Of a stretch of DNA of 64,000 bases, positions 16,636 to 64,000 are shown piece by piece. Positions within the stretch are counted from its first letter, which is position 1, and the number at the start of each line of letters is the position of its first letter. The stretch covers positions 38,126 through 102,125 of the forward strand of contig JACPID010000005.1 of assembly GCA_016188265.1 (NCBI GenBank), given 5' to 3'. Made by a program: the position numbers and the translations under genes. The stretch comes from Candidatus Woesearchaeota archaeon. Lineage in GTDB: Archaea > Nanobdellota > Nanobdellia > Woesearchaeales > ARS49. Below the pieces are notes generated by a model. The model was not told the origin of the DNA. It made no database searches and saw nothing but the letters and a program-made list of their open reading frames with translations.

Positions 16636-17134
16636 TTTTCTCCAATATAATACTATACGTAAAAACAATTGAAAATATAAATATTTGTATTACAGGGCAC
16701 TGACGCAGTGGTTTCGCTACATTTATTAAAGTGCTAAAATTACTTATGATTATGCATGATTTAAGAAAGGATTTAATTATTATGGGTGTTGCAATCGCTG
16801 TTTTGCTTGGGTCAGGGAATTTATCATCGTCGGACTTAGGTTTTTTTGTTTTTTTATACGTTTTTCAAATACGCAAAATTATGAATTCTGCGTATTATAA
16901 AAACGCAAGATTTAGAATATGGGTTGTACTTTAATAATTGATATGAGCTTAGTTCAATTGTTAAAAAATCAGCATCAGGGTTCAATACAGACAATGACTG
17001 AACCCTAAAGAAAAACATCAGAACCGAAAAATCTGGTTTTGAAAATCAAAAACAAAAAGTTGCATAACTCCAAAATTTAAAGCCTACATGCCTTAAAACA
17101 AGAATTCAAAAAGAACAGGGTTCAATGCTCAAAA

Positions 17135-51982: not shown

Positions 51983-52705
51983 TTAGAAACTTCTTCCATA
52001 GCTTACAAATGTAAGCCACTCATTTTTTTTGTCTGTATTATGCTCGTATCTGTATTCAAAACGTAATGATTCAAAGTTTATTCTTAATGTTGTCTTGAGT
52101 GCGTGTTCATAATCTCCTTTTAAGACAGATGTGTCTGGTTTATAATTAAATCTTAAAGTTCCTGTCCAGTGCGGTTTTGATAAATTTTCTGCAACAGGTT
52201 TATACATTGTTGATATTGATGGAGCAATAGTAGAATCTTCAGGAGGCTCGATTAAATAATAATGAACATCTTTAAAATATTCATGAATGTTTTTTTCAAG
52301 TTTTTTTGGAACAATCTCATAAGCTTCAAAGCCTTTATCAACAAATTTGCCAATATCGCCTCGTTCATAAATAAATGCTTGATGAAATGCTCTTGTTATT
52401 TCTACTTTTTCTCTAGTATTTAAACGAGTACTTTTGTAAGGATCATCCCGTAGTGTTCTGAGAATAGAATCTTGAGAGTAACGTTCGTAATCATAAATTA
52501 ATCCAAATCTGGAATCAAAATATAGTCTTTGTCTTCTAAATTCAGGCATCTCATCATAAATGTATTGAACTTTTTCTCCATTTATTATTCTTCTAGCATG
52601 CTGGTGTAATGGTTCTTGTTTTTTTTGCGCATTGGAGCACCCTGCAAGTAGCATAAATATTTCTATTAACTTAATTGTTTTTTTTGCTATTTTAGTTATT
52701 TTCAT
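51983..52705 (-). CDS. lipoprotein (lipobox LLAGC), unknown function
   Basis: K-rich n-region, hydrophobic core, then the LAGCS lipobox. Confidence 0.45.
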   Translation of the reverse strand: MKITKIAKKTIKLIEIFMLLAGCSNAQKKQEPLHQHARRIINGEKVQYIYDEMPEFRRQRLYFDSRFGLIYDYERYSQDSILRTLRDDPYKSTRLNTREKVEITRAFHQAFIYERGDIGKFVDKGFEAYEIVPKKLEKNIHEYFKDVHYYLIEPPEDSTIAPSISTMYKPVAENLSKPHWTGTLRFNYKPDTSVLKGDYEHALKTTLRINFESLRFEYRYEHNTDKKNEWLTFVSYGRSF

Positions 52706-53360
52706 TTTGGTTGGGTAATAATCCTAATTGTTTTAGTTTTCTGTATAATGTTTCAAATCTTAATCCAATTCTGCGGGCTGTTTGAGATATATTTTGTTTA
52801 TTTTCTTCAAGAGCTTTTCTAAGATATGTTTTTTCAAAATATTCTTCTGCTTCTTTTAAAGAAAGTTCAGAGTCTGGCAGTTCTTTTACTATATCTTTTG
52901 AAATACCTGGTGCGTTTTCGTATAATTTTTTGAATTTATTAGGATGTATTGCTTCTTTATACTGTTCTAAAGTTTTTTCTATTAATCCTTTAATAGCAAT
53001 TTCTTTGATATAATCTGCTTTCAGTAATTCTTTTCTATATGTTTCTACATCAATTTTTAATTCTTTAATAAGTCTGTGAAGTGTTTCGCGTTCAATTTGA
53101 GCAATTCTAGAAACTTCACTGACATTTCCAAAATGTAATCTTAATAGTTTTGACAAATAAAATTTTTTAAATGATTTTTTACATATTTTAAAAGAAATTC
53201 TTGTATCTATTATGAAGTCTAAAACAGGGGCTTTTTTTAGTTTATCAGAAATATCGCTTTTTATTTCACTAACAGTTATTCCAAGAATTTTATGCATGGC
53301 TTGATCTAGTAAAGGTTTTATCTTAAATTCCAAAGCCTGCTCAAAAACTTCTTTCTTCAT
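52692..53360 (-). CDS. protein with two Fis-type (HTH_8) DNA-binding domains
   Basis: FGNVSEVSRIAQIERETLHRLIKEL and NISQTARRIGLRFETLYRKLKQLGL both match the Fis/NtrC C-terminal HTH consensus. Confidence 0.55.
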   Translation of the reverse strand: MKKEVFEQALEFKIKPLLDQAMHKILGITVSEIKSDISDKLKKAPVLDFIIDTRISFKICKKSFKKFYLSKLLRLHFGNVSEVSRIAQIERETLHRLIKELKIDVETYRKELLKADYIKEIAIKGLIEKTLEQYKEAIHPNKFKKLYENAPGISKDIVKELPDSELSLKEAEEYFEKTYLRKALEENKQNISQTARRIGLRFETLYRKLKQLGLLPNQNENN

Positions 53361-55947: not shown

Positions 55948-56445
55948 CTATACTACAGGCGTTTCATAACTGACTGCTTTCACATTTTTTTGAAACGTAT
56001 CTTCTATTTTTTCAACAATATTATTTGAAGAAGTTAATAATGGATAAGCAATAGCTAATTTAATTGCAGGGGGTTGTGCTTCATCATCTGGAAGTGTTGG
56101 TTGAATAATAACAAAACCTATAACTCTTTTGTCTTCCTTTGTTGCGTATTCTTCTTTTATGGCATAAATATTTCCCAAGTCTTGAATTAAGTAACGTTCA
56201 AGTCGTGAAAAGAACTGGCTCGGTTTATTGGTTTTTAATTCACTTCTACTATCACAAACTGGAAGATGGTTTTTAATATTGTCTGCTAAAATGCATGGAA
56301 AAGTATGTTCACCACTTTCATTAATCACAATCGGTCCAATTGGCGCCAGTCCATATCTGTATAAGATATATTGGTCAACCATTGAAATAACTTCACTTCT
56401 ATCTTCAGAGTTCAGAGGAGTTATTTCAATTTTATCTTCGATCAT
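55948..56445 (-). CDS. hypothetical protein
   Basis: ORF only; it occupies the position of eIF6 in the conserved cluster but does not resemble it. Confidence 0.3.
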   Translation of the reverse strand: MIEDKIEITPLNSEDRSEVISMVDQYILYRYGLAPIGPIVINESGEHTFPCILADNIKNHLPVCDSRSELKTNKPSQFFSRLERYLIQDLGNIYAIKEEYATKEDKRVIGFVIIQPTLPDDEAQPPAIKLAIAYPLLTSSNNIVEKIEDTFQKNVKAVSYETPVV

Positions 56446-56921
56446 TTTTTCTTTTCAGATTCTTTTTGTAATTTTTCTAATTCTTTTTTAATTTTTACTT
56501 CGCCTTTTTTAACTGCTTTGTCTTTTGTTTTTTCTTTTATTACTTCTTTAACTTGCTGTTCTATGTTTTCTGCTTTTTTATCTTCAGATACTTGTATTTT
56601 TGCAGTGGTTTTCTTTGGCTCTGCTTTTGGTTTTTCCTTTTTATCTTCAACAACTTTTACACCAACTAAATTAGCTTTTACATTGCCATCTTCTGCCTTA
56701 ATTGCTGTAATCTTAATCCATGACGGAGGGTTTTTAATGCCCTTTGACCATAATTCTTCATTTAGTTCTTTTCCAATTAATACTACTTTGTCTCTTGCTT
56801 TCATGTGCCGTGAAAGAAATCTTTTAACTGCTATTACTGCTTTTTTTGCTCGTTTGTATTTTGGTACTTTAAGCCATTCTTTTCTGAGTGGAATTGTGTA
56901 TGTTCTTTCAAGTGTTGCCAT
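56442..56921 (-). CDS. rpl31e: ribosomal protein eL31 with a long K/E-rich C-terminal extension
   Basis: ERTYTIPLRKEWLKVPKYKRAKKAVIAVKRFLSRH; about 70 extra lysine-rich residues. Confidence 0.75.
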   Translation of the reverse strand: MATLERTYTIPLRKEWLKVPKYKRAKKAVIAVKRFLSRHMKARDKVVLIGKELNEELWSKGIKNPPSWIKITAIKAEDGNVKANLVGVKVVEDKKEKPKAEPKKTTAKIQVSEDKKAENIEQQVKEVIKEKTKDKAVKKGEVKIKKELEKLQKESEKKK

Positions 56922-57112: not shown

Positions 57113-57373
57113 TTAAAATGTTATTTTTGTTTTTCTTTTTCCAGCATCAATCAATTTAAGCAGTTCTTTAAATTGATCATCACTTATAATTGTTATATTT
57201 TGCTTTTCTATTACTTGTGCTATTATTGCCAATGATTTTATTGCAATATCAGGATGTGCAATCTTAAGATTGCTATACCGCACAAGTGCTTCTTTGCTTA
57301 AGTGCGGCTTGATAAATGCTTCAAGTGCGTTTATTTGTTTTTGAATACTTTGTTGTTCTTCAAGATCGCTCAT
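57113..57373 (-). CDS. PDCD5/TFAR19-like dsDNA-binding protein
   Basis: Its size and its position between rps19e and rpl39e match the conserved archaeal cluster; helical K/E-rich sequence. Confidence 0.5.
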   Translation of the reverse strand: MSDLEEQQSIQKQINALEAFIKPHLSKEALVRYSNLKIAHPDIAIKSLAIIAQVIEKQNITIISDDQFKELLKLIDAGKRKTKITF

Positions 57374-57795
57374 CTTTTTTTAAGCTGATTGCTTGCTTTA
57401 TCAAGTAAAGATAATCCTTTAGGCGATATTATTCTTCCTTTATGTGTTTCTTTTTTCTTTTGCACTGCAAGTCCTGCTTTTTCTAGTTGTTGTAATATTT
57501 TTCGTGCAATACTTCCGCTTCCAGCATAACGGTGCTCTGGCTTATGCCCTCTGTTTTTATTTCCGCCATATTTTTTACGAAGTTTTGAAACACCAATTGG
57601 TCCAACTTCATTTAATCTTCTAAGTATTGCAGCTGATCTAACATACCACCAGTCTTTTCTTGTGGGAGGTTTTTCTTTAAAATGTCCTGTTTTTGCAAAG
57701 CTTCCCCATTCAGGCTGCTGAATTTCTTTGAAATTTTTTAGTTCTTCAGCTACTTTTTCTATAAGCTGAGTTTTTGATACATCTGTTATTCCCAT
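57370..57795 (-). CDS. rps19e: ribosomal protein eS19
   Basis: PEWGSFAKTGHFKEKPP...WWYVRSAAILRRL...GGNKNRGHKPEHRYAGSGSIARKILQQLE. Confidence 0.8.
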   Translation of the reverse strand: MGITDVSKTQLIEKVAEELKNFKEIQQPEWGSFAKTGHFKEKPPTRKDWWYVRSAAILRRLNEVGPIGVSKLRKKYGGNKNRGHKPEHRYAGSGSIARKILQQLEKAGLAVQKKKETHKGRIISPKGLSLLDKASNQLKKR

Positions 57796-59423: not shown

Positions 59424-61319
59424 ATGGTATCACAAATCATTAAAGAAATACTAAAGCAGTTACCAGCAGAAAAAATATCAGATACAGCTTTTGAAGCTGC
59501 GAACATTGTCTTGTATACAAAATATAAAGATTATTTTCTTGATAATGAAGGCACTATTAGGAATGTTGTTGCTGAGTTTAAGAAAAGAGTAGAATTAAGG
59601 CCTGATCCTAGTATTGTTGAAGATCCTGAAAAAGCTGAAAAGAAAATCAAAGAAATAATTCCTGAAGAAGCAGGCGTCACAAGTGTACATTTTGATGTTC
59701 CAAGAAGTATTGTTGTTATTGAAGCAGAAAAACCAGGACTTGCTATTGGAAAACAAGGAGCATTACTGCGTGAGATAAGAGAAAAGGTTTTATGGGTTCC
59801 CTTTATTAGAAGAACACCGCCTATTCGTTCTATTTTAATTGAAAACATCAGAGAAGTATTATATCGTGCCAGTACTGAAAGAAAAAAATTTTTGGATAAA
59901 GTAGGGCATAGAATTTATGACGGTTGGATGCGTGAAAAGAAAAATGAATGGGTTAGGCTTACATTTTTAGGAGGTGGACGCCAAGTTGGAAGAAGTTGTT
60001 TGTTCTTGCAAACTCCTGAATCAAGAATTTTAATGGATTGTGGAATTAATGTAGCAGCATTAGGGCAAGAACAGTTTCCATATCTAGATGCTCCTGAATT
60101 AGATATCAAACAATTAGATGCAGTCATTGTAACACATAGCCATGTAGATCATTCTGGATTTGTTCCATATCTTTTCAAGTTCGGTTATGATGGCCCTGTG
60201 TATTGCACTGCACCCACTAGAGACGTTATGAGTTTGCTTCTTCTTGACTATGTTAAAATTATGAAAGGAGAAAATAAAGAAGCAATTTTTGATACTGATG
60301 ATATAAAAAATATGGTTAAAAACACTATCTGCGTAAACTGGGAAGAAGTTACAGATATAACTCCAGATGTACGCATGACTCTATATAACAGCGGCCACAT
60401 ATTAGGTTCTTCAATGGTTCATTTACATATAGGCAATGGACTTCATAATTTTCTTTATACTGGAGATATGAAATTTGGACGCTCTCAACTATTAGAACCT
60501 GCACATACTCAATTTCCAAGGCTAGAAACAGTTGCTATTGAAAGTACTTATGGTGGAAGAACAAACATTCTGCCCCCTACAAAAGAACAAGATGAAATAT
60601 TAGCAAGCATTATTAAAGAAACTGTTGCTAAAGGCGGCAAAGTTCTTATGCCTGTACTTGGCAGTGGAAGAGCCCAAGATGTTATGGTAATGGTAGAACA
60701 GTTAATTAGAAATAAAGATCTTGATCCAATACCAGTGTATGTTGATGGAATGGTATGGGATGTTACAGCAATTCACACAGCTTATCCTGAATTCTTGAAT
60801 AGAGAATTAAGAAAGCTTATTTTCCACAAAGATCAAAATCCGTTTTTATCAGAAATATTCAAACGTATTGGAAGCCAAAAAGAACGAATGCAAGTTATTG
60901 AAGAATCAGGGCCTTGCATTATTCTTGCGACTAGCGGCATGTTAGTTGGAGGGCCATCAGTTGAATACTTAAAGCATTTAGCAGATAATCCTAGAAACAC
61001 ATTAATATTTAGCTGTTATCAAGGCGAGGGAAGCCTTGGACAAAGAATACAACAAGGAGAAAGAGAGATTATTCAAAAGACAGGTAATAGGCAAGAAGTT
61101 ATTCCAATAAAAATGAATGTTGAAAGAATTGAGATAAGTGATCATTCAGATAGAAAACAATTAATGAATTTTATGTTTAAATGCACTCCGAAACCAAAAA
61201 AAGTAATTGTTAATCATGGAGAGAATACTAGAGTTCTTGATTTAGCATCGAGCATTCACAAACAAAACAGAATAGAAACAGTAGCTCCAAGAAATTTAGA
61301 AACTTTAAGATTAAAATAA
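59424..61319 (+). CDS. aCPSF1 (KH-domain beta-CASP metallo-beta-lactamase RNase)
   Basis: N-terminal KH region, the HSHVDHSG MBL motif, beta-CASP motifs; 631 aa. Confidence 0.85.
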   Translation: MVSQIIKEILKQLPAEKISDTAFEAANIVLYTKYKDYFLDNEGTIRNVVAEFKKRVELRPDPSIVEDPEKAEKKIKEIIPEEAGVTSVHFDVPRSIVVIEAEKPGLAIGKQGALLREIREKVLWVPFIRRTPPIRSILIENIREVLYRASTERKKFLDKVGHRIYDGWMREKKNEWVRLTFLGGGRQVGRSCLFLQTPESRILMDCGINVAALGQEQFPYLDAPELDIKQLDAVIVTHSHVDHSGFVPYLFKFGYDGPVYCTAPTRDVMSLLLLDYVKIMKGENKEAIFDTDDIKNMVKNTICVNWEEVTDITPDVRMTLYNSGHILGSSMVHLHIGNGLHNFLYTGDMKFGRSQLLEPAHTQFPRLETVAIESTYGGRTNILPPTKEQDEILASIIKETVAKGGKVLMPVLGSGRAQDVMVMVEQLIRNKDLDPIPVYVDGMVWDVTAIHTAYPEFLNRELRKLIFHKDQNPFLSEIFKRIGSQKERMQVIEESGPCIILATSGMLVGGPSVEYLKHLADNPRNTLIFSCYQGEGSLGQRIQQGEREIIQKTGNRQEVIPIKMNVERIEISDHSDRKQLMNFMFKCTPKPKKVIVNHGENTRVLDLASSIHKQNRIETVAPRNLETLRLK

Positions 61320-61373
61320 TTCATTCGATTATAATCGAAAGATTTATATAATTCACTCGATTATACTCTAGTA

Positions 61374-62657
61374 ATGAAAGATCTTCTTTTCGAATGGAAC
61401 CCTTGGTGGACAGAACAGTATTCATTTAAAGGAATTGCCAGAACCAAACTTAGTGACGTTCTTCCATGGATCCACAGAAAAGAAATCGTATCCATAGTAG
61501 GAGTGCGAAGAGCAGGAAAGACTACTTTACTGTTTGAAATCATCAGCCACTTAATCAAAGAAAACAAAATAAGTCCAAAGAACATTCTTTTCATCAAAGC
61601 AGATGACGACCGAGTTACCAAAAATGGAATTATAGATCAAGCTCTCGACGAGTACCACAAATGGATCAATCCCTCTTCTAAAATCTTTATGTTCATCGAC
61701 GAAATACAAGAAATAACCAACTGGCAAAAAACCCTCAAGAGAATATACGACCTTCAACCAGACCTCAAAATATTCATCTCCGGAAGCAACGCATCACTCC
61801 TAAAAGAAGATCTGGGTTCTTCTCTTGCGGGAAGATTTGCTTCATTTGAAGTCTTTCCATTTAGCTTTTCTGAATACCTCCGAGCAAAAGGAATAAAAAT
61901 AGAAAACAACACGTTAGTTAAACACAAAAACACCATACGACATCTTCTCTTAGAATACATCAGTACAAGCGCTTTTCCTGAAGTCATCCTAGAAGCAAAC
62001 GAAAAAATGAAAAAAGAACTCATAACCTTCTATTTTGATTCAATATTTTACAGAGATGTCATCAAAAGAAAAGAAATACGAAACCCCGCCAAACTCGAAA
62101 AACTCATAAAATACTTCCTACAAAACATATCTAGTCCCGCCAACTTCACCAAAATCGCAAAACTACTCGATCTAACAACAGACAGCGTCGTCGAATACAC
62201 AAAAGCACTAGAAGACGCATACCTTATATTCCAAATAAACCTCCTTGAATTTTCCTATAAAAAACAAATAATAAATCCTAAAAAAATCTACTGTATTGAC
62301 ACGGGAATACGAAATATTATAGGCTTCAAATTCTCAGAAGACATAGGAAAATTATACGAAAACACTGTTTTCATTCAACTGAAAAGAACAATAAAAGAAA
62401 TCCACTATTGGAAAAATAAATACGAATGCGACTTCATCACAAAAGAAGGCAAAAAACTAAGCGCAATACAAGTCTGTTACGATATTACCAACGCTAAAGA
62501 AAGAGAACTAAAAGGACTCTTAGAAGCAATGCAACAATTCAAACTAACCACAGGGCATATCATAACAGAAAACTACGAAACAGAAGAAAAAATAGAAGGC
62601 AAAAAAATAAAATACACCCCTTTGTGGAAATGGCTGATAACAAGTGATAAAAAATGA
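61374..62657 (+). CDS. COG1373-type AAA+ ATPase (AAA_14 / DUF4143)
   Basis: N-terminal NPWW motif and Walker A GVRRAGKTT; codon usage is clearly C-ending, unlike the rest of the window. Confidence 0.65.
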   Translation: MKDLLFEWNPWWTEQYSFKGIARTKLSDVLPWIHRKEIVSIVGVRRAGKTTLLFEIISHLIKENKISPKNILFIKADDDRVTKNGIIDQALDEYHKWINPSSKIFMFIDEIQEITNWQKTLKRIYDLQPDLKIFISGSNASLLKEDLGSSLAGRFASFEVFPFSFSEYLRAKGIKIENNTLVKHKNTIRHLLLEYISTSAFPEVILEANEKMKKELITFYFDSIFYRDVIKRKEIRNPAKLEKLIKYFLQNISSPANFTKIAKLLDLTTDSVVEYTKALEDAYLIFQINLLEFSYKKQIINPKKIYCIDTGIRNIIGFKFSEDIGKLYENTVFIQLKRTIKEIHYWKNKYECDFITKEGKKLSAIQVCYDITNAKERELKGLLEAMQQFKLTTGHIITENYETEEKIEGKKIKYTPLWKWLITSDKK

Positions 62658-63766
62658 CTCAAATACTTCACTCTCTTTCCGAGAAGAACATACAGTCCCT
62701 TTGCGGAAATGTGATCTATCAAAGGGGAAAAGAATATTTCATAGATAAAAGAGTTAGGAGGATCCGCTTTGACGGCAATACAGTTATCGCAGAAGTTGTT
62801 GGCAACGACGTTTATGAAGTCGAGATCAGCGGTTTGAATAGCGTAAAAAAACTTCAGGAATTGAACTGTTCCTGCTCCTGTCCCTATGAAGGCCTGTGCA
62901 AACATGTTGTTGCAGTTCTCATCCATCTTTACAAGAATAAGACCAAACGCGGCGTAAAAAATATTGGTCTTGATTCTGTTACAAAAGACGAGCTTGTACA
63001 GATTATCAGCACTCTTATCAAAGAAAGCCCATCGCTTGCAAACCGGATTAACATTCTTACTCAGACAAGGATCCTCAATCAAAAAGAAATAGATAAAAAA
63101 CTACGATCTCTTTTCTCAGACTCAATTGACTACAAATCGATGAACTCCTTCATAAAGGAACTGAACAGTTTGAAACGAGTCATTCTCCTCGCAGCCAAAC
63201 AAGACTACAAAAGAGCAAGATCGATAGCTGAACAGATCATTACGCACATTTTAAACCCGAACAATTACGTTGATGATTCAAGCGGGAAACTAGGTGATTA
63301 TCTCTACGAGTTGCTAGAGCTTACTACCACGTTAGTCAAAACTGACCAAGAACGCGAGGAATTCACCAACACATTTTTCCCCATATACATCAACGAAGAC
63401 ACAGGATACGGCGATACACTGGGAGAGATACTTATCAAAATTAATAAACAAAACCTTACTTTTCTTGAAACATATTGTCTCCGACATCTTAATCAAATAA
63501 AAACATCCAAAACCAAAAATAAAAAACAGAACCTGTACAGAATCGTCTCGTTATTGTTAGGCATCTATGACGAGACAAACGACCCAGACAAATACATTGA
63601 ATTATGCAAACAAAATCTCTCCGAATACGACAATATGCATCTTGTCGATAAACTCATCGAACTTGGAAGAACTAAGGAAGCACTCCAAACCTGTCTCGAG
63701 ATAAAAAAGACCAGAAAAGTATCTCCCTATATTCTCAAGAAGATTGAGGAACTGAAAAACAGCTAA
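62654..63766 (+). CDS. SWIM zinc-finger domain protein
   Basis: CSCSCPYEGLCKHVVAV matches CxCxnCxH; ATGA-coupled to the ATPase; the same atypical codon usage. Confidence 0.55.
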   Translation: MTQILHSLSEKNIQSLCGNVIYQRGKEYFIDKRVRRIRFDGNTVIAEVVGNDVYEVEISGLNSVKKLQELNCSCSCPYEGLCKHVVAVLIHLYKNKTKRGVKNIGLDSVTKDELVQIISTLIKESPSLANRINILTQTRILNQKEIDKKLRSLFSDSIDYKSMNSFIKELNSLKRVILLAAKQDYKRARSIAEQIITHILNPNNYVDDSSGKLGDYLYELLELTTTLVKTDQEREEFTNTFFPIYINEDTGYGDTLGEILIKINKQNLTFLETYCLRHLNQIKTSKTKNKKQNLYRIVSLLLGIYDETNDPDKYIELCKQNLSEYDNMHLVDKLIELGRTKEALQTCLEIKKTRKVSPYILKKIEELKNS

Positions 63767-64000
63767 AAAACCATTGGAGAAATCTGCAGATACTTCAAAC
63801 TCTTAGCACAAAAAGGAGTACATTGGTTAAAAAAAAAGCAAAAAACCTAATACAACTCAAAGAAATACTAAACAAATATGTTCTAGTAAAAAACGCAAAA
63901 GTCTAGGAAACGGTCAACATCAACTAAAGGTAGCTTTTTTTTTCGAAAGTTTTAAATATACATACGTATAATAATGTATAATAATGTTGAAGCTTGTGTT

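What the first reader, a model, noticed from the sequence alone, without database searches (positions are those of the whole stretch)
61321..64000. Compositionally distinct island (C-ending codons) encoding a COG1373 AAA ATPase and a SWIM zinc-finger protein
Immediately after the aCPSF1 stop, codon usage switches from A/T-ending to C-ending (gac, acc, ctc, atc, tac) and the GC content is visibly higher. A 16-bp perfect palindrome (ttcgattataatcgaa, about 61325-61340) sits at the boundary. The two coupled genes are a DUF4143/AAA_14-type ATPase with the NPWW motif and a SWIM (CxCxnCxH) protein. This looks like a recent horizontal acquisition of a two-gene module of unknown role. The window ends before the far boundary.
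Basis: seen in the sequence. Interest (0 to 1): 0.55.

Follow-up and report, generated by a model that had tools for sequence, protein, structure and literature searches.

The report
Imported ATPase–SWIM candidate defence gene pair
A small archaeon recently picked up a 2.6-kb piece of foreign DNA carrying two candidate antiviral genes; this is an ordinary kind of event, but it shows that the palindrome at its edge is the ATPase gene's own conserved control switch and not an insertion scar.

Summary
The ORFs at 61374-62657 and 62654-63766 have C-ending codon fractions of 0.29-0.30, against 0.04-0.13 in the 53 other ORFs (z about +10). Their synonymous-codon fit is 7-9 SD worse than native genes. 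The bias is strand-asymmetric (A+C-rich), continues through the non-coding tail, and stops at a T9 run and the next promoter (about 63944). The far boundary of this segment therefore lies inside the window. A differently composed PIN-like/UPF0175-like pair follows.

- **Gene 1** is an AAA_14+DUF4143 (COG1373, PADLOC PDC-S01) ATPase with a STAND/Orc-Cdc6-like fold, a winged helix and a nuclease-like C-terminus.
- **Gene 2** is a short SWIM plus TPR-like protein (PDC-S62-like). Its start overlaps the ATPase stop (ATGA).

The 16-bp palindrome is not a boundary mark. It is one of two operator-like sites bracketing the BRE/TATA of the ATPase's leaderless promoter. This cassette is 86% conserved in nine orthologous loci, against 47% at third codon positions. 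Paralogs carry different palindromes, which suggests autoregulation.

The ATPase is normally solo, so the SWIM pairing is lineage-specific. Both families sit in defence neighbourhoods elsewhere, but neither has validated activity. Verdict: a recently acquired candidate-defence operon; the transfer itself is ordinary, and the operator cassette is the useful new detail.

The parts
61324..61339 (+). Distal operator-like palindrome O1 (TTCGATTATAATCGAA). Its right half overlaps the BRE-like CGAAAGA (61336-61342).
   Evidence: It is perfect in the window. It is conserved with 0-2 mismatches at the same position upstream of the ATPase orthologs in L003, L004/5, L006/7, L008, L010, L011, L014 and L017. 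DNA upstream of it is unrelated among the loci (about 31% identity).
61343..61350 (+). TATA box (TTTATATA) of the ATPase promoter. Its centre lies about 27 nt upstream of the ATG, which implies a leaderless mRNA.
   Evidence: These columns are invariant or nearly invariant in the nine-locus alignment. The spacing is read directly from the sequence. The leaderless inference rests on the established TATA-to-start spacing of archaeal promoters.
61356..61371 (+). Proximal operator-like site O2 (CTCGATTATACTCTAG). Its left half is intact and its right half degenerate. It starts 32 nt after O1 and lies between the TATA box and the start codon.
   Evidence: A second copy of the palindrome sits at this position in all the orthologous loci; it is perfect in L011. 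A 30-nt direct repeat with 32-nt spacing covers both copies (family D3).
61374..62657 (+). ATPase gene (427 aa). Domain order: NPWW N-terminal motif, AAA+ core (Walker A G43-R45-G48-K49, Walker B D109-E110), helical lid, winged helix (about residues 238-307), and a PD-(D/E)XK-like C-terminal domain (E329, E351, D353, Q366).
   Evidence: Pfam AAA_14 1.2e-35 and DUF4143 6.2e-23. PADLOC PDC-S01 1.2e-110 over 19-423. AF2 model with pLDDT 91.2 and pTM 0.90. Foldseek hits to CED-4, Apaf-1, Avs5, RFC and Orc1/Cdc6. Conserved residues. C3 0.29, z +10.3.
62654..63766 (+). SWIM gene (370 aa). It has an N-terminal SWIM zinc finger (C74, C76, C82, H84) and a TPR-like helical solenoid with invariant DY and DDS-G motifs. 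Its start codon overlaps the ATPase stop codon (ATGA).
   Evidence: Pfam SWIM 6.2e-08. PADLOC PDC-S62 4.7e-17, covering profile positions 8-345 of 566. Invariant columns. ZSWIM8 SWIM and TPR/PPR hits. TPR-like fold hits. C3 0.30, z +10.5.
63767..63943 (+). A-rich 3' non-coding tail of the segment, ending in a T9 run (63935-63943) that is the likely operon terminator. It contains an A9GC...GCT9 inverted repeat (63829-63839 and 63933-63943).
   Evidence: The non-coding stretch 63767-63983, which includes this tail, has A+C 0.62 and AT skew +0.30, the same asymmetry as the two genes. Inverted repeat I19. Sequence read. Rfam finds nothing in 61000-64000. Calling the oligo-T run a terminator is an inference from general archaeal biology.
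63944..64000 (+). Start of the next, differently composed module. It has its own BRE/TATA-like promoter (CGAAAG-TTTTAAATATA, 63944-63960) and the first codons (ATG at 63984) of a 159-aa PIN-like (DUF3368) gene. This is followed, beyond the window, by a 103-aa UPF0175-like gene.
   Evidence: Contig L001 extends the window by about 870 nt. GC is 0.40 and 0.44 with positive GC skew and G3 of 0.23-0.28. DUF3368 appears only as a precomputed hit. My own hmmscan gave no hit for the 159-aa protein, and the UPF0175 hit is below cutoff (E 0.0018).

Best explanation
Window 61320 to about 63943 is a recently acquired 2.6-kb piece of foreign DNA whose composition has not yet drifted towards the host's. 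It sits immediately after the aCPSF1 stop codon of a Woesearchaeota (DPANN archaeon) genome, at the start of a mosaic variable region.

What it encodes. It is a single operon.
1. The first gene is a self-contained PDC-S01/COG1373 unit. The protein has a STAND/Orc-Cdc6-like AAA+ ATPase, a winged helix and a PD-(D/E)XK-like domain. It brings its own leaderless promoter.
2. In that promoter, two copies of a 16-bp palindrome bracket the BRE/TATA box. One overlaps the BRE and the other lies between the TATA box and the transcription start.
3. The second gene is translationally coupled to the first and encodes a SWIM zinc-finger protein with a TPR-like solenoid.

Proposed mechanism (inferred).
1. 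A dimer of the ATPase binds the two operators through its winged helix and represses its own operon, blocking TFB/TBP binding and RNA polymerase recruitment.
2. On a trigger such as foreign nucleic acid or a viral protein, ATP-dependent oligomerisation of the STAND-like core activates the nuclease-like domain, as in other NTPase-nuclease conflict systems.
3. The SWIM-TPR protein is a lineage-specific accessory that supplies a sensor or adaptor surface in trans.

Shown: the composition anomaly, the domain content, the cassette conservation, the lack of SWIM linkage in orthologs, and the defence-type neighbourhoods.

Inferred: autoregulation, nuclease activity, defence function and the role of the SWIM protein.
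For: Foreign origin:
- C3 z is about +10 and synonymous-codon fit z is -7.4 and -9.3, with aCPSF1 at -0.2.
- The asymmetry extends into non-coding DNA and ends at the T9 run and next promoter, so it reflects mutational history and not translational selection.
- Orthologs elsewhere have host-like usage.
- The junction is reproduced in a second assembly.

Self-contained unit:
- The cassette plus ORF is the only part conserved across nine loci.
- Identity is 86% in the cassette, 47% at third codon positions and 28-31% in the flanks.
- Each locus has a different neighbourhood.

Autoregulation:
- The operator positions relative to BRE, TATA and the start are read from the sequence.
- The model contains a winged helix, and the fold resembles Orc1/Cdc6 and STAND proteins.
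- Paralogs with a different putative recognition helix carry different palindromes around their own TATA boxes. L003b has TTAGTTTC-N6-GAAACTAA three times. The L014 paralog has TGCATA...TATGCA.

Defence-type role:
- PADLOC PDC-S01 at 1e-110 and PDC-S62 at 5e-17.
- ATPase orthologs lie next to AbiEii, HEPN/NTase, VapB-like and Fic genes.
- SWIM relatives lie inside a BREX-like locus (PglX-like methyltransferase, MNT/HepT, BrxL), next to PIF1 and AAA_15/21 genes, and next to HNH, ParB and AbiE genes plus another AAA_14-DUF4143 gene.
- PDC-S01 is described as an ATPase fused to a PD-(D/E)XK domain and is enriched in Archaea and DPANN (PMC12988326).

Operon: the ATGA overlap and the shared codon bias.
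Against: - No experiment links PDC-S01 or PDC-S62 to defence. The one PDC-S01 representative tested in E. coli against T4, T5 and T7 was not among the protective candidates (10.1101/2024.09.26.614923).
- The canonical (D/E)xK of the nuclease motif is Q366-V-C368 in this clade, so catalysis is uncertain.
- Operator binding by the ATPase itself is untested. Another factor could bind the palindromes.
- The ATPase-SWIM operon was seen only in this organism's population, so functional coupling rests on the gene overlap and one convergent adjacency (L013).
- No donor, empty site, integrase or target duplication was found.
- The SWIM model is only moderately confident (pLDDT 71.7, with a poor N-terminus).
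Confidence: 0.6

Rival explanations
1. The ATPase unit is a selfish, addiction-like or homing-like element and not a host defence. The gene plus its operator cassette spreads for its own benefit, and the nuclease-like domain and sequence-specific winged helix serve its maintenance or insertion. The SWIM gene is a passenger.
For: - Homology among the nine loci begins exactly at the cassette and ends at the stop codon, and every neighbourhood is different, including insertions between housekeeping genes.
- Tandem paralog pairs occur in L003 and L014.
- The heterologous defence test of a PDC-S01 representative was negative.
- The insertion lies within 2-4 nt of the aCPSF1 stop codon.
Against: - There are no terminal inverted repeats, target-site duplications or transposase/integrase genes, and the palindrome does not recur downstream of the gene.
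- The ortholog clade is absent from viral contigs.
- Orthologs are 48-79% identical and have taken on their hosts' codon usage, which indicates long residence and not rapid spread.
Confidence: 0.17
2. The ATPase is primarily a DNA-binding regulator or chromatin factor, an Orc1/Cdc6-like AAA+ protein with a winged helix. It controls its own promoter and possibly other promoters, and the nuclease-like domain is degenerate. On this view the pair has a regulatory function and not a conflict-related one.
For: - Foldseek finds similarity to Orc1/Cdc6 and RFC.
- The promoter palindromes are conserved.
- The ExK motif is replaced by QxC.
- Several orthologs sit among housekeeping genes.
Against: - The palindrome has no other good match in the 64-kb window, so no regulon is visible.
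- E329, E351 and D353 remain invariant or nearly so, which argues for a functional active site.
- The patchy, multi-copy, variable-context distribution and the PADLOC 'embedded in defence systems' origin fit conflict systems better.
Confidence: 0.12
3. The compositional anomaly does not reflect transfer. It could arise in place from strand inversion, local mutation bias or selection for particular codons, or it could be an assembly chimera.
For: - Native minus-strand genes in the window are A3-rich and T3-poor; for example, 56442-56921 has A3 0.65 and T3 0.18. An inverted native gene would therefore share part of the AT asymmetry.
- The source is a metagenome-assembled genome.
Against: - Native genes on either strand never exceed C3 of 0.13, so inversion cannot produce 0.29-0.30.
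- The bias covers non-coding DNA and switches abruptly at gene-unit borders.
- The downstream pair has a third composition.
- An independent Logan contig spans aCPSF1, ATPase, SWIM and the PIN-like gene with 1 mismatch in 4107 nt.
Confidence: 0.05

Closest known systems
PADLOC PDC-S01 (COG1373; Pfam AAA_14 + DUF4143), a single-gene phage-defence candidate
   Same: - Full-length HMM match (1.2e-110, covering 9-408 of 412 profile positions).
- The same AAA_14 + DUF4143 architecture.
- Enriched in Archaea and DPANN, and described as an ATPase fused to a PD-(D/E)XK domain (PMC12988326; PMC3424549).
- Orthologs sit next to TA and Abi genes.
   Different: - Here it is the first gene of a two-gene operon with a SWIM protein, whereas PDC-S01 is defined as a single gene.
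- To my knowledge, the conserved dual-palindrome leaderless promoter cassette has not been described for the family.
- Defence activity is unproven for the family, and one heterologous test was negative.
PADLOC PDC-S62 / prokaryotic 'SWIM zinc finger family protein' (COG4715-like, from memory)
   Same: - N-terminal SWIM CxCx5CxH finger followed by a helical solenoid with conserved DY and DDS-G motifs.
- Relatives are embedded in defence loci such as a BREX-like locus, and sit next to MNT/HepT and PIF1 genes.
   Different: - This is a short form (370 aa). It matches only positions 8-345 of the 566-position PDC-S62 profile and lacks the C-terminal roughly 200 residues of most relatives.
- Only 5 cluster representatives, including the query itself, score below 1e-30 among 1.8 billion.
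STAND NTPases used in immunity (Apaf-1/CED-4, bacterial Avs) and Orc1/Cdc6-type AAA+ winged-helix proteins
   Same: - The predicted fold of the ATPase (P-loop core, helical lid, winged helix) gives top Foldseek hits to CED-4, Apaf-1, EfAvs5, RFC and Orc1/Cdc6.
- An effector-like nuclease domain is fused to the NTPase, as in Avs proteins.
   Different: - Only 10-16% sequence identity with TM-scores of 0.3-0.44.
- There is no C-terminal TPR or WD40 sensor array in the ATPase itself. A TPR-like solenoid is encoded by the separate, coupled SWIM gene.
- STAND-specific motifs were not examined.
Archaeal autorepressors whose operators overlap the BRE/TATA box or the transcription start (for example MDR1, LrpA, Phr, Lrs14; from general knowledge)
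   Same: Palindromic sites overlap the BRE and lie between the TATA box and the start of the regulator's own leaderless gene.
   Different: The presumed regulator is a 427-aa ATPase-nuclease and not a small dedicated transcription factor. Binding is inferred, not shown.
Classical genomic or defence islands (integrase-bearing, tRNA-targeted integrative elements)
   Same: Compositionally foreign DNA, a mosaic of small conflict-type modules, and variable content between relatives.
   Different: No integrase, tRNA target or flanking direct repeats were found in the 3.5 kb that could be examined. The insertion abuts a housekeeping gene's stop codon.

Membership tests
PDC-S01 / COG1373 (AAA_14 + DUF4143) | Full-length match to the family HMMs above threshold | tested here: met
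   PADLOC PDLC04787 at 1.2e-110 over residues 19-423. Pfam AAA_14 at 122.7 bits (cutoff 27) and DUF4143 at 81.7 bits (cutoff 28.1).
PDC-S01 / COG1373 (AAA_14 + DUF4143) | Intact P-loop NTPase motifs (Walker A and B) | tested here: met
   G43, R45, R46, G48, K49, T50 and D109, E110 are invariant in 46 homologs.
PDC-S01 / COG1373 (AAA_14 + DUF4143) | PD-(D/E)XK catalytic signature in the DUF4143 domain | tested here: inconclusive
   E329 and D353 are invariant and E351 nearly so. However, the (D/E)xK position reads Q366-V-C368 in the whole ortholog clade, while distant paralogs have E-V...K. The fold class comes from the literature (PMC3424549).
PDC-S01 / COG1373 (AAA_14 + DUF4143) | Single-gene system | tested here: not met
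   Here the gene is translationally coupled (ATGA overlap) to a SWIM gene with the same codon bias. The eight other ortholog loci are solo.
PDC-S01 / COG1373 (AAA_14 + DUF4143) | Anti-phage or anti-virus activity | not testable with these tools
   The family is a candidate only (PMC12988326). One representative did not protect E. coli against T4, T5 or T7.
SWIM zinc finger (PF04434) | CxCxnCxH zinc-binding signature and an HMM match above the gathering score | tested here: met
   C74-S-C76-x5-C82-K-H84, invariant in 13 relatives. Score 32.4 bits against a cutoff of 19.6. The profile also hits the ZSWIM8 SWIM domain.
PADLOC PDC-S62 | Full-length match to the candidate's HMM | tested here: inconclusive
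   E-value 4.7e-17, but only profile positions 8-345 of 566 are covered. The C-terminal third of the long-form relatives is absent.
STAND NTPases | NTPase, helical lid and winged-helix core | tested here: met
   AF2 model with pLDDT 91. Foldseek hits to CED-4, Apaf-1 and EfAvs5 with probability 1.00 and query TM-scores up to 0.44. A weak Pfam nSTAND3 hit lies below cutoff.
STAND NTPases | C-terminal repeat (TPR, WD40 or LRR) sensor in the same polypeptide | tested here: not met
   The ATPase ends with the nuclease-like domain. TPR-like repeats occur only in the separate SWIM protein.
Integrative genomic island | Integrase or recombinase gene, tRNA or other att target, and flanking direct repeats | tested here: not met
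   The only tRNA genes are at 17134 and 24287. No boundary-flanking repeats were found in L001. No integrase lies in 61320-64870. DNA beyond that could not be obtained.
Autoregulated archaeal promoter (operator overlapping BRE/TATA/TSS) | Conserved palindromic sites positioned over the BRE and between the TATA box and the start of the regulator's own gene | tested here: met
   O1 at 61324-61339 overlaps the BRE. O2 at 61356-61371 lies between the TATA box (61343-61350) and the ATG (61374). The cassette is 86% conserved across nine loci.
Autoregulated archaeal promoter (operator overlapping BRE/TATA/TSS) | The gene product binds the operator and represses transcription | not testable with these tools
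   Support is indirect only: a winged helix in the model, and paralog-specific palindromes that co-vary with a different helix sequence.
DUF3368 (PIN-like) / UPF0175 toxin-antitoxin pair (downstream module) | HMM matches above threshold to both partners | tested here: not met
   My hmmscan found nothing for the 159-aa protein. UPF0175 scored 18.4 bits against a cutoff of 27.9. DUF3368 appears only as a precomputed hit.

The most novel reading that the evidence does not exclude
The operon is a split STAND-like immune sensor. The PDC-S01 protein supplies the NTPase, winged helix and nuclease effector, and keeps itself repressed by sitting on its own dual operator. The SWIM-TPR protein supplies, in trans, the repeat-type sensor that classical STAND proteins carry in cis. 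Engagement of an invader by the SWIM-TPR partner would release the ATPase from the operator, which simultaneously induces the operon and arms the nuclease. More generally, every PDC-S01 paralog would have its own private operator. That would give this very common but uncharacterised family a defined DNA ligand and an experimentally tractable on/off switch.
Probability: 0.15. Interest if true: 0.65.

Novelty: new variant of a known kind. Interest (0 to 1): 0.38.

Why it matters
PDC-S01 (COG1373) is reported as the fourth most common candidate defence gene in prokaryotes. It is especially enriched in Archaea and in DPANN lineages that lack CRISPR and restriction-modification systems, yet nothing is known about how it works (PMC12988326).

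- **A testable handle.** The conserved dual-palindrome promoter cassette gives a concrete hypothesis: sequence-specific self-operator binding by the winged helix, with autorepression. It also gives a defined DNA ligand for biochemistry and structural work.
- **A candidate partner.** The lineage-specific coupling to a SWIM-TPR protein suggests a partner for interaction studies.
- **A caveat for genome scanning.** A palindrome at a compositional boundary can belong to the imported gene's promoter and need not be an integration site.
- **An ordinary event.** The transfer itself is routine for variable regions of archaeal genomes.

Tried and rejected
- **Palindrome as att site or boundary repeat.** Rejected. 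It does not recur at the right end of the segment, and it travels with the gene in all the orthologs.
- **Codon bias intrinsic to the gene family.** Rejected. Orthologs have C3 of 0.05-0.21 that tracks their hosts.
- **Simple inversion of native DNA.** Rejected. Native minus-strand genes have C3 of at most 0.13.
- **Conserved ATPase-SWIM operon.** Not found in any other locus.
- **Viral origin.** There are no matches to the cassette or the SWIM family in IMG/VR. Only three distant (28-29% identity) bacterial-type ATPase relatives were found, and they have bacterial-style promoters.
- **Empty-site search through the exact aCPSF1 protein.** Not on record.
- **Donor search.** The two closest ATPase homologs (78-79% identity) are on 1.6-1.8-kb contigs with balanced C3 and G3, so no donor was identified.
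- **Metagenome scan for the cassette.** It returned only 4 loci, 2 of them new orthologs.
- **Word-indexed searches for SWIM relatives.** These were nearly empty, so the structure prediction had a 4-sequence alignment and only moderate confidence.
- **PDB sequence search for the ATPase.** No hit.
- **Rfam on 61000-64000.** Nothing found.
- **A first alignment too diverse for locus finding.** The call failed.
- **Literature search with 'AAA_14'.** It returned only noise.


Full report
**1. The observation**

I called 55 non-overlapping ORFs of at least 100 aa across the window and tabulated third-position composition.
- Fifty-three ORFs have C3 of 0.04-0.13 (mean 0.081, sd 0.021).
- The last two, 61374-62657 and 62654-63766, have C3 of 0.29 and 0.30 (z = +10.3 and +10.5).
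- Their synonymous-codon log-likelihood under the pooled native usage is 7.4 and 9.3 SD below the native mean. The adjacent aCPSF1/FttA gene (59424-61319; Pfam Beta-Casp, KH_TffA, RMMBL) is at -0.2 SD.
- Bulk GC rises only from about 0.31 to 0.35-0.38.

The signal is really a strand-asymmetric shift from T3 to C3, with G3 staying low.
- Third-position GC skew is -0.63 and -0.37, and third-position A+C is 0.75 and 0.61.
- The 217-nt non-coding stretch after the SWIM gene shares the asymmetry (A+C 0.62).
- The asymmetry stops at a T9 run (63935-63943), which is directly followed by a new BRE/TATA-like promoter and the ATG (63984) of the next gene.

A perfect 16-mer palindrome is not rare in this AT-rich window: 6 are observed against about 2.9 expected.

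**2. Extending the window**

The exact proteins are on record in Logan contigs.
- L001 (4977 bp, SRR12113422) overlaps window 59894-64000 with one mismatch and adds about 870 nt.
- That extra DNA carries a 159-aa gene (precomputed hit DUF3368, PIN-like) and an overlapping 103-aa gene (weak UPF0175 hit). They have GC 0.40 and 0.44, G3 of 0.23-0.28 and positive GC skew.
- So at least two differently composed foreign modules lie side by side after aCPSF1, which makes this a mosaic variable region.
- NCBI names both window proteins as coming from 'Candidatus Woesearchaeota archaeon'.

**3. The ATPase**

- *Family matches.* Pfam gives AAA_14 plus DUF4143. PADLOC gives PDC-S01 at 1.2e-110 over the full length.
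- *Conserved residues.* The NPWW motif, Walker A (GxRRxGKT), Walker B (DE), and E329, E351 and D353 are invariant or nearly invariant in 46 homologs. The canonical (D/E)xK position is Q366-V-C368 throughout this clade.
- *Structure.* A 46-sequence AF2 model is confident (pLDDT 91.2, pTM 0.90). Foldseek places it with CED-4, Apaf-1, EfAvs5, RFC, RuvB and Orc1/Cdc6. That corresponds to an AAA+/STAND-like core, a lid and a winged helix (about residues 238-307), followed by the α/β nuclease-like domain.
- *Literature.* DUF4143 is classed as a PD-(D/E)XK fold of unknown function (PMC3424549). PDC-S01 is described as the fourth most common candidate defence gene, an ATPase fused to a PD-(D/E)XK domain, enriched in Archaea and DPANN, and unvalidated (PMC12988326). 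A representative tested in E. coli was not among the protective candidates (10.1101/2024.09.26.614923).

**4. The palindrome is a promoter element that travels with the gene**

The ATPase has thousands of homologs, and the closest are 66-79% identical. The named ones are mostly Woesearchaeota, Nanoarchaeota and Thermoplasmatota. I obtained DNA for eight other distinct orthologous loci: L003a, L004/5/16, L006/7, L008, L010, L011, L014 and L017.

All of them carry the same roughly 50-nt cassette immediately before the ATG:

[TTCGATyATAATCGAA] AG-n-TTTATA(T/A)A n5-6 [yTCGATTATAATCGAa] n2-6 ATG

Mean pairwise identity over 36 pairs is as follows.

| Region | Identity |
|---|---|
| Cassette (44 nt) | 86% |
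| Whole CDS | 70% |
| Third codon positions | 47% |
| Further upstream | 31% |
| Downstream of the stop codon | 28% |

The conserved unit is therefore exactly 'cassette + ORF'.

In the window the elements lie as follows.
- O1 (61324-61339) overlaps the BRE-like CGAAAGA.
- The TATA box is at 61343-61350.
- O2 (61356-61371) fills the space between the TATA box and the ATG (61374). That ATG sits where transcription should start, which implies a leaderless mRNA.
- O1 and O2 start 32 nt apart, about three helical turns.

Operators in these positions are the classical arrangement for archaeal repressors that block TFB/TBP binding or polymerase recruitment (general knowledge).

Paralogous AAA_14-DUF4143 genes show the same design with different sequences.
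- L003b has three TTAGTTTC-N6-GAAACTAA palindromes interleaved with TATA boxes.
- The L014 paralog has TGCATA...TATGCA spanning its TATA box.
- Their putative recognition helices also differ from the conserved 'TTDSVxEYT' of the ortholog clade.

This co-variation, although it rests on only three families, points to autoregulation by the protein's own winged helix. Binding itself is not shown.

**5. Evidence for transfer**

- In the other loci the ATPase has taken on its host's codon usage: C3 of 0.05-0.21, with G3 similar to or higher than C3. The bias here is therefore specific to this copy.
- Every locus has a different neighbourhood. Examples are a site between a Fic gene and Sec61β/NAC, a site beside SSB and RFC genes, sites beside AbiEii, HEPN/NTase, KaiC and FtsY genes, and tandem paralog pairs.
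- No native gene on either strand approaches the observed C3, which rules out simple inversion.
- A second assembly reproduces the junction, which argues against a chimera.
- No donor was identified.
- The extreme A+C richness, which includes non-coding DNA, suggests a donor replicon with a strongly asymmetric mutation regime. That is an inference only.
- No integrase, tRNA target or flanking repeats were found. The cassette begins within 2-4 nt of the aCPSF1 stop codon.

**6. The SWIM protein**

- *Family matches.* Pfam SWIM is above threshold. PADLOC PDC-S62 scores 4.7e-17 but covers only positions 8-345 of a 566-position profile, and there are weak hits to the SWIM N-terminus of DpdE.
- *Rarity.* An exhaustive phmmer search of 1.84 billion representatives found 1699 relatives at E up to 1e-3 but only 5 below 1e-30, counting the query itself. 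The best non-self hit is 47% identical. Most relatives are 500-650 aa.
- *Conserved features.* The family shares the CxCx5CxH finger plus invariant DY and DDS-G motifs. The profile also hits the ZSWIM8 SWIM domain and TPR/PPR repeats.
- *Structure.* The AF2 model, built on a 4-sequence alignment, is moderate (pLDDT 71.7). Its confident helical part resembles TPR solenoids only weakly.
- *Genomic contexts:*
  - L013 (a Methanobacteriota/Euryarchaeota MAG) has the SWIM gene in a low-GC patch beside HNH, ParB and AbiEii/AbiEi genes and a convergent, distantly related AAA_14-DUF4143 gene.
  - L012 has no informative neighbours.
  - L018/19 has a long-form SWIM gene directly between a PglX-like Eco57I/N6-methyltransferase and MNT/HepT plus BrxL genes.
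  - L020 has it beside WYL, PIF1, DUF433/DUF5615 and AAA_15/21 genes.
  - L009 has it just after an NTP_transf_2 gene.

The family therefore sits in defence islands, but the operon with a PDC-S01 gene was seen only here. In the window the two genes overlap by ATGA and share the same foreign codon bias, so they arrived together. The ATPase's short C-terminal extension (…ITSDKK), compared with orthologs ending at …PLWKWLL(x), spans the junction.

**7. Interpretation**

The best-supported reading is a recently imported, self-regulated candidate-defence operon at the start of a mosaic variable region of a DPANN genome. I propose that the PDC-S01 protein represses its own leaderless promoter through the two operators. 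I further propose that it acts as an ATP-dependent, STAND-like nuclease effector, with the SWIM-TPR protein as a lineage-specific accessory sensor or adaptor.

My confidence by component:
- Transfer: about 0.85.
- Operator function of the palindromes: about 0.6.
- A defence or conflict role: about 0.45.
- A functional SWIM partnership: about 0.3.

The rivals are a selfish or addiction-type gene, a purely regulatory Orc/Cdc6-like factor, and a non-transfer artefact. They are listed separately with the tests that would decide between them.

**8. Novelty and score**

Horizontal acquisition of small conflict genes is ordinary, and both gene families are already catalogued as candidates. Two things are new here. 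The other is the unusual operon coupling with a short SWIM-TPR protein. I rate this a new variant of a known kind, with interest 0.38.

Noticed in passing
window 63984-64000, continuing in L001 4091-4878: The next two genes overlap each other: a 159-aa gene (precomputed hit DUF3368, PIN-like) and a 103-aa gene (weak UPF0175 hit). They have a third composition, with GC 0.40-0.44, G3 0.23-0.28 and positive GC skew. This looks like a separately acquired toxin-antitoxin-like pair, with the putative toxin first.
   Followed up: partly
window 61307-61336 and 61339-61368: A 30-nt direct repeat (87% identical, 32-nt spacing) covers both operator copies. Its first copy extends into the last 13 nt of aCPSF1 (AAGATTAAAATAA against the BRE/TATA AAGATTTATATAA). 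The C-terminal codons and stop codon of aCPSF1 might therefore derive from a duplicated promoter unit of the insert, or this may be chance in AT-rich DNA.
   Followed up: no
window 63829-63839 and 63933-63943: A perfect 11-nt inverted repeat, A9GC ... GCT9, encloses 93 nt of the A-rich 3' tail. The T9 arm is the probable terminator. Rfam finds nothing there.
   Followed up: partly
window 63944-63960: The promoter of the downstream gene (CGAAAG-TTTTAAATATA, about 24 nt before its ATG) resembles the BRE/TATA core of the ATPase cassette. The core is therefore a generic consensus for leaderless promoters. Only the palindromes are specific to the ATPase.
   Followed up: no
L003 10001-12631; L014 6256-9121: AAA_14-DUF4143 genes occur as tandem pairs of distant paralogs (27-33% identity). 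Each has its own distinct palindromes around its TATA box.
   Followed up: partly
L018 2254-9909 (also L019): A long-form SWIM protein (574 aa) is embedded in a BREX-like locus. It sits 7 nt after a 1246-aa PglX-like Eco57I/N6-methyltransferase gene and is followed by MNT/HepT and BrxL genes.
   Followed up: no
window, minus-strand ORFs such as 56442-56921, 52692-53360 and 57370-57795: Native minus-strand genes are markedly A3-rich and T3-poor (A3 0.55-0.65), whereas plus-strand genes have A3 roughly equal to T3. This indicates a replication- or transcription-linked strand asymmetry in the host genome.
   Followed up: no
L017 2718-3957: An AbiEii gene and the ORF after it have A3 of 0.53-0.56 and C3 of 0.11-0.15, on a contig whose other genes have C3 of 0.01-0.05. 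They lie on the opposite strand from their neighbours, so this may be strand bias and not transfer.
   Followed up: no
L013 230-2990: In a 55% GC Methanobacteriota contig, the HNH, ParB-like and SWIM genes form a low-GC patch (0.39-0.44). This is a foreign island carrying the SWIM relative, next to host-like AAA_14-DUF4143 and AbiE genes.
   Followed up: partly
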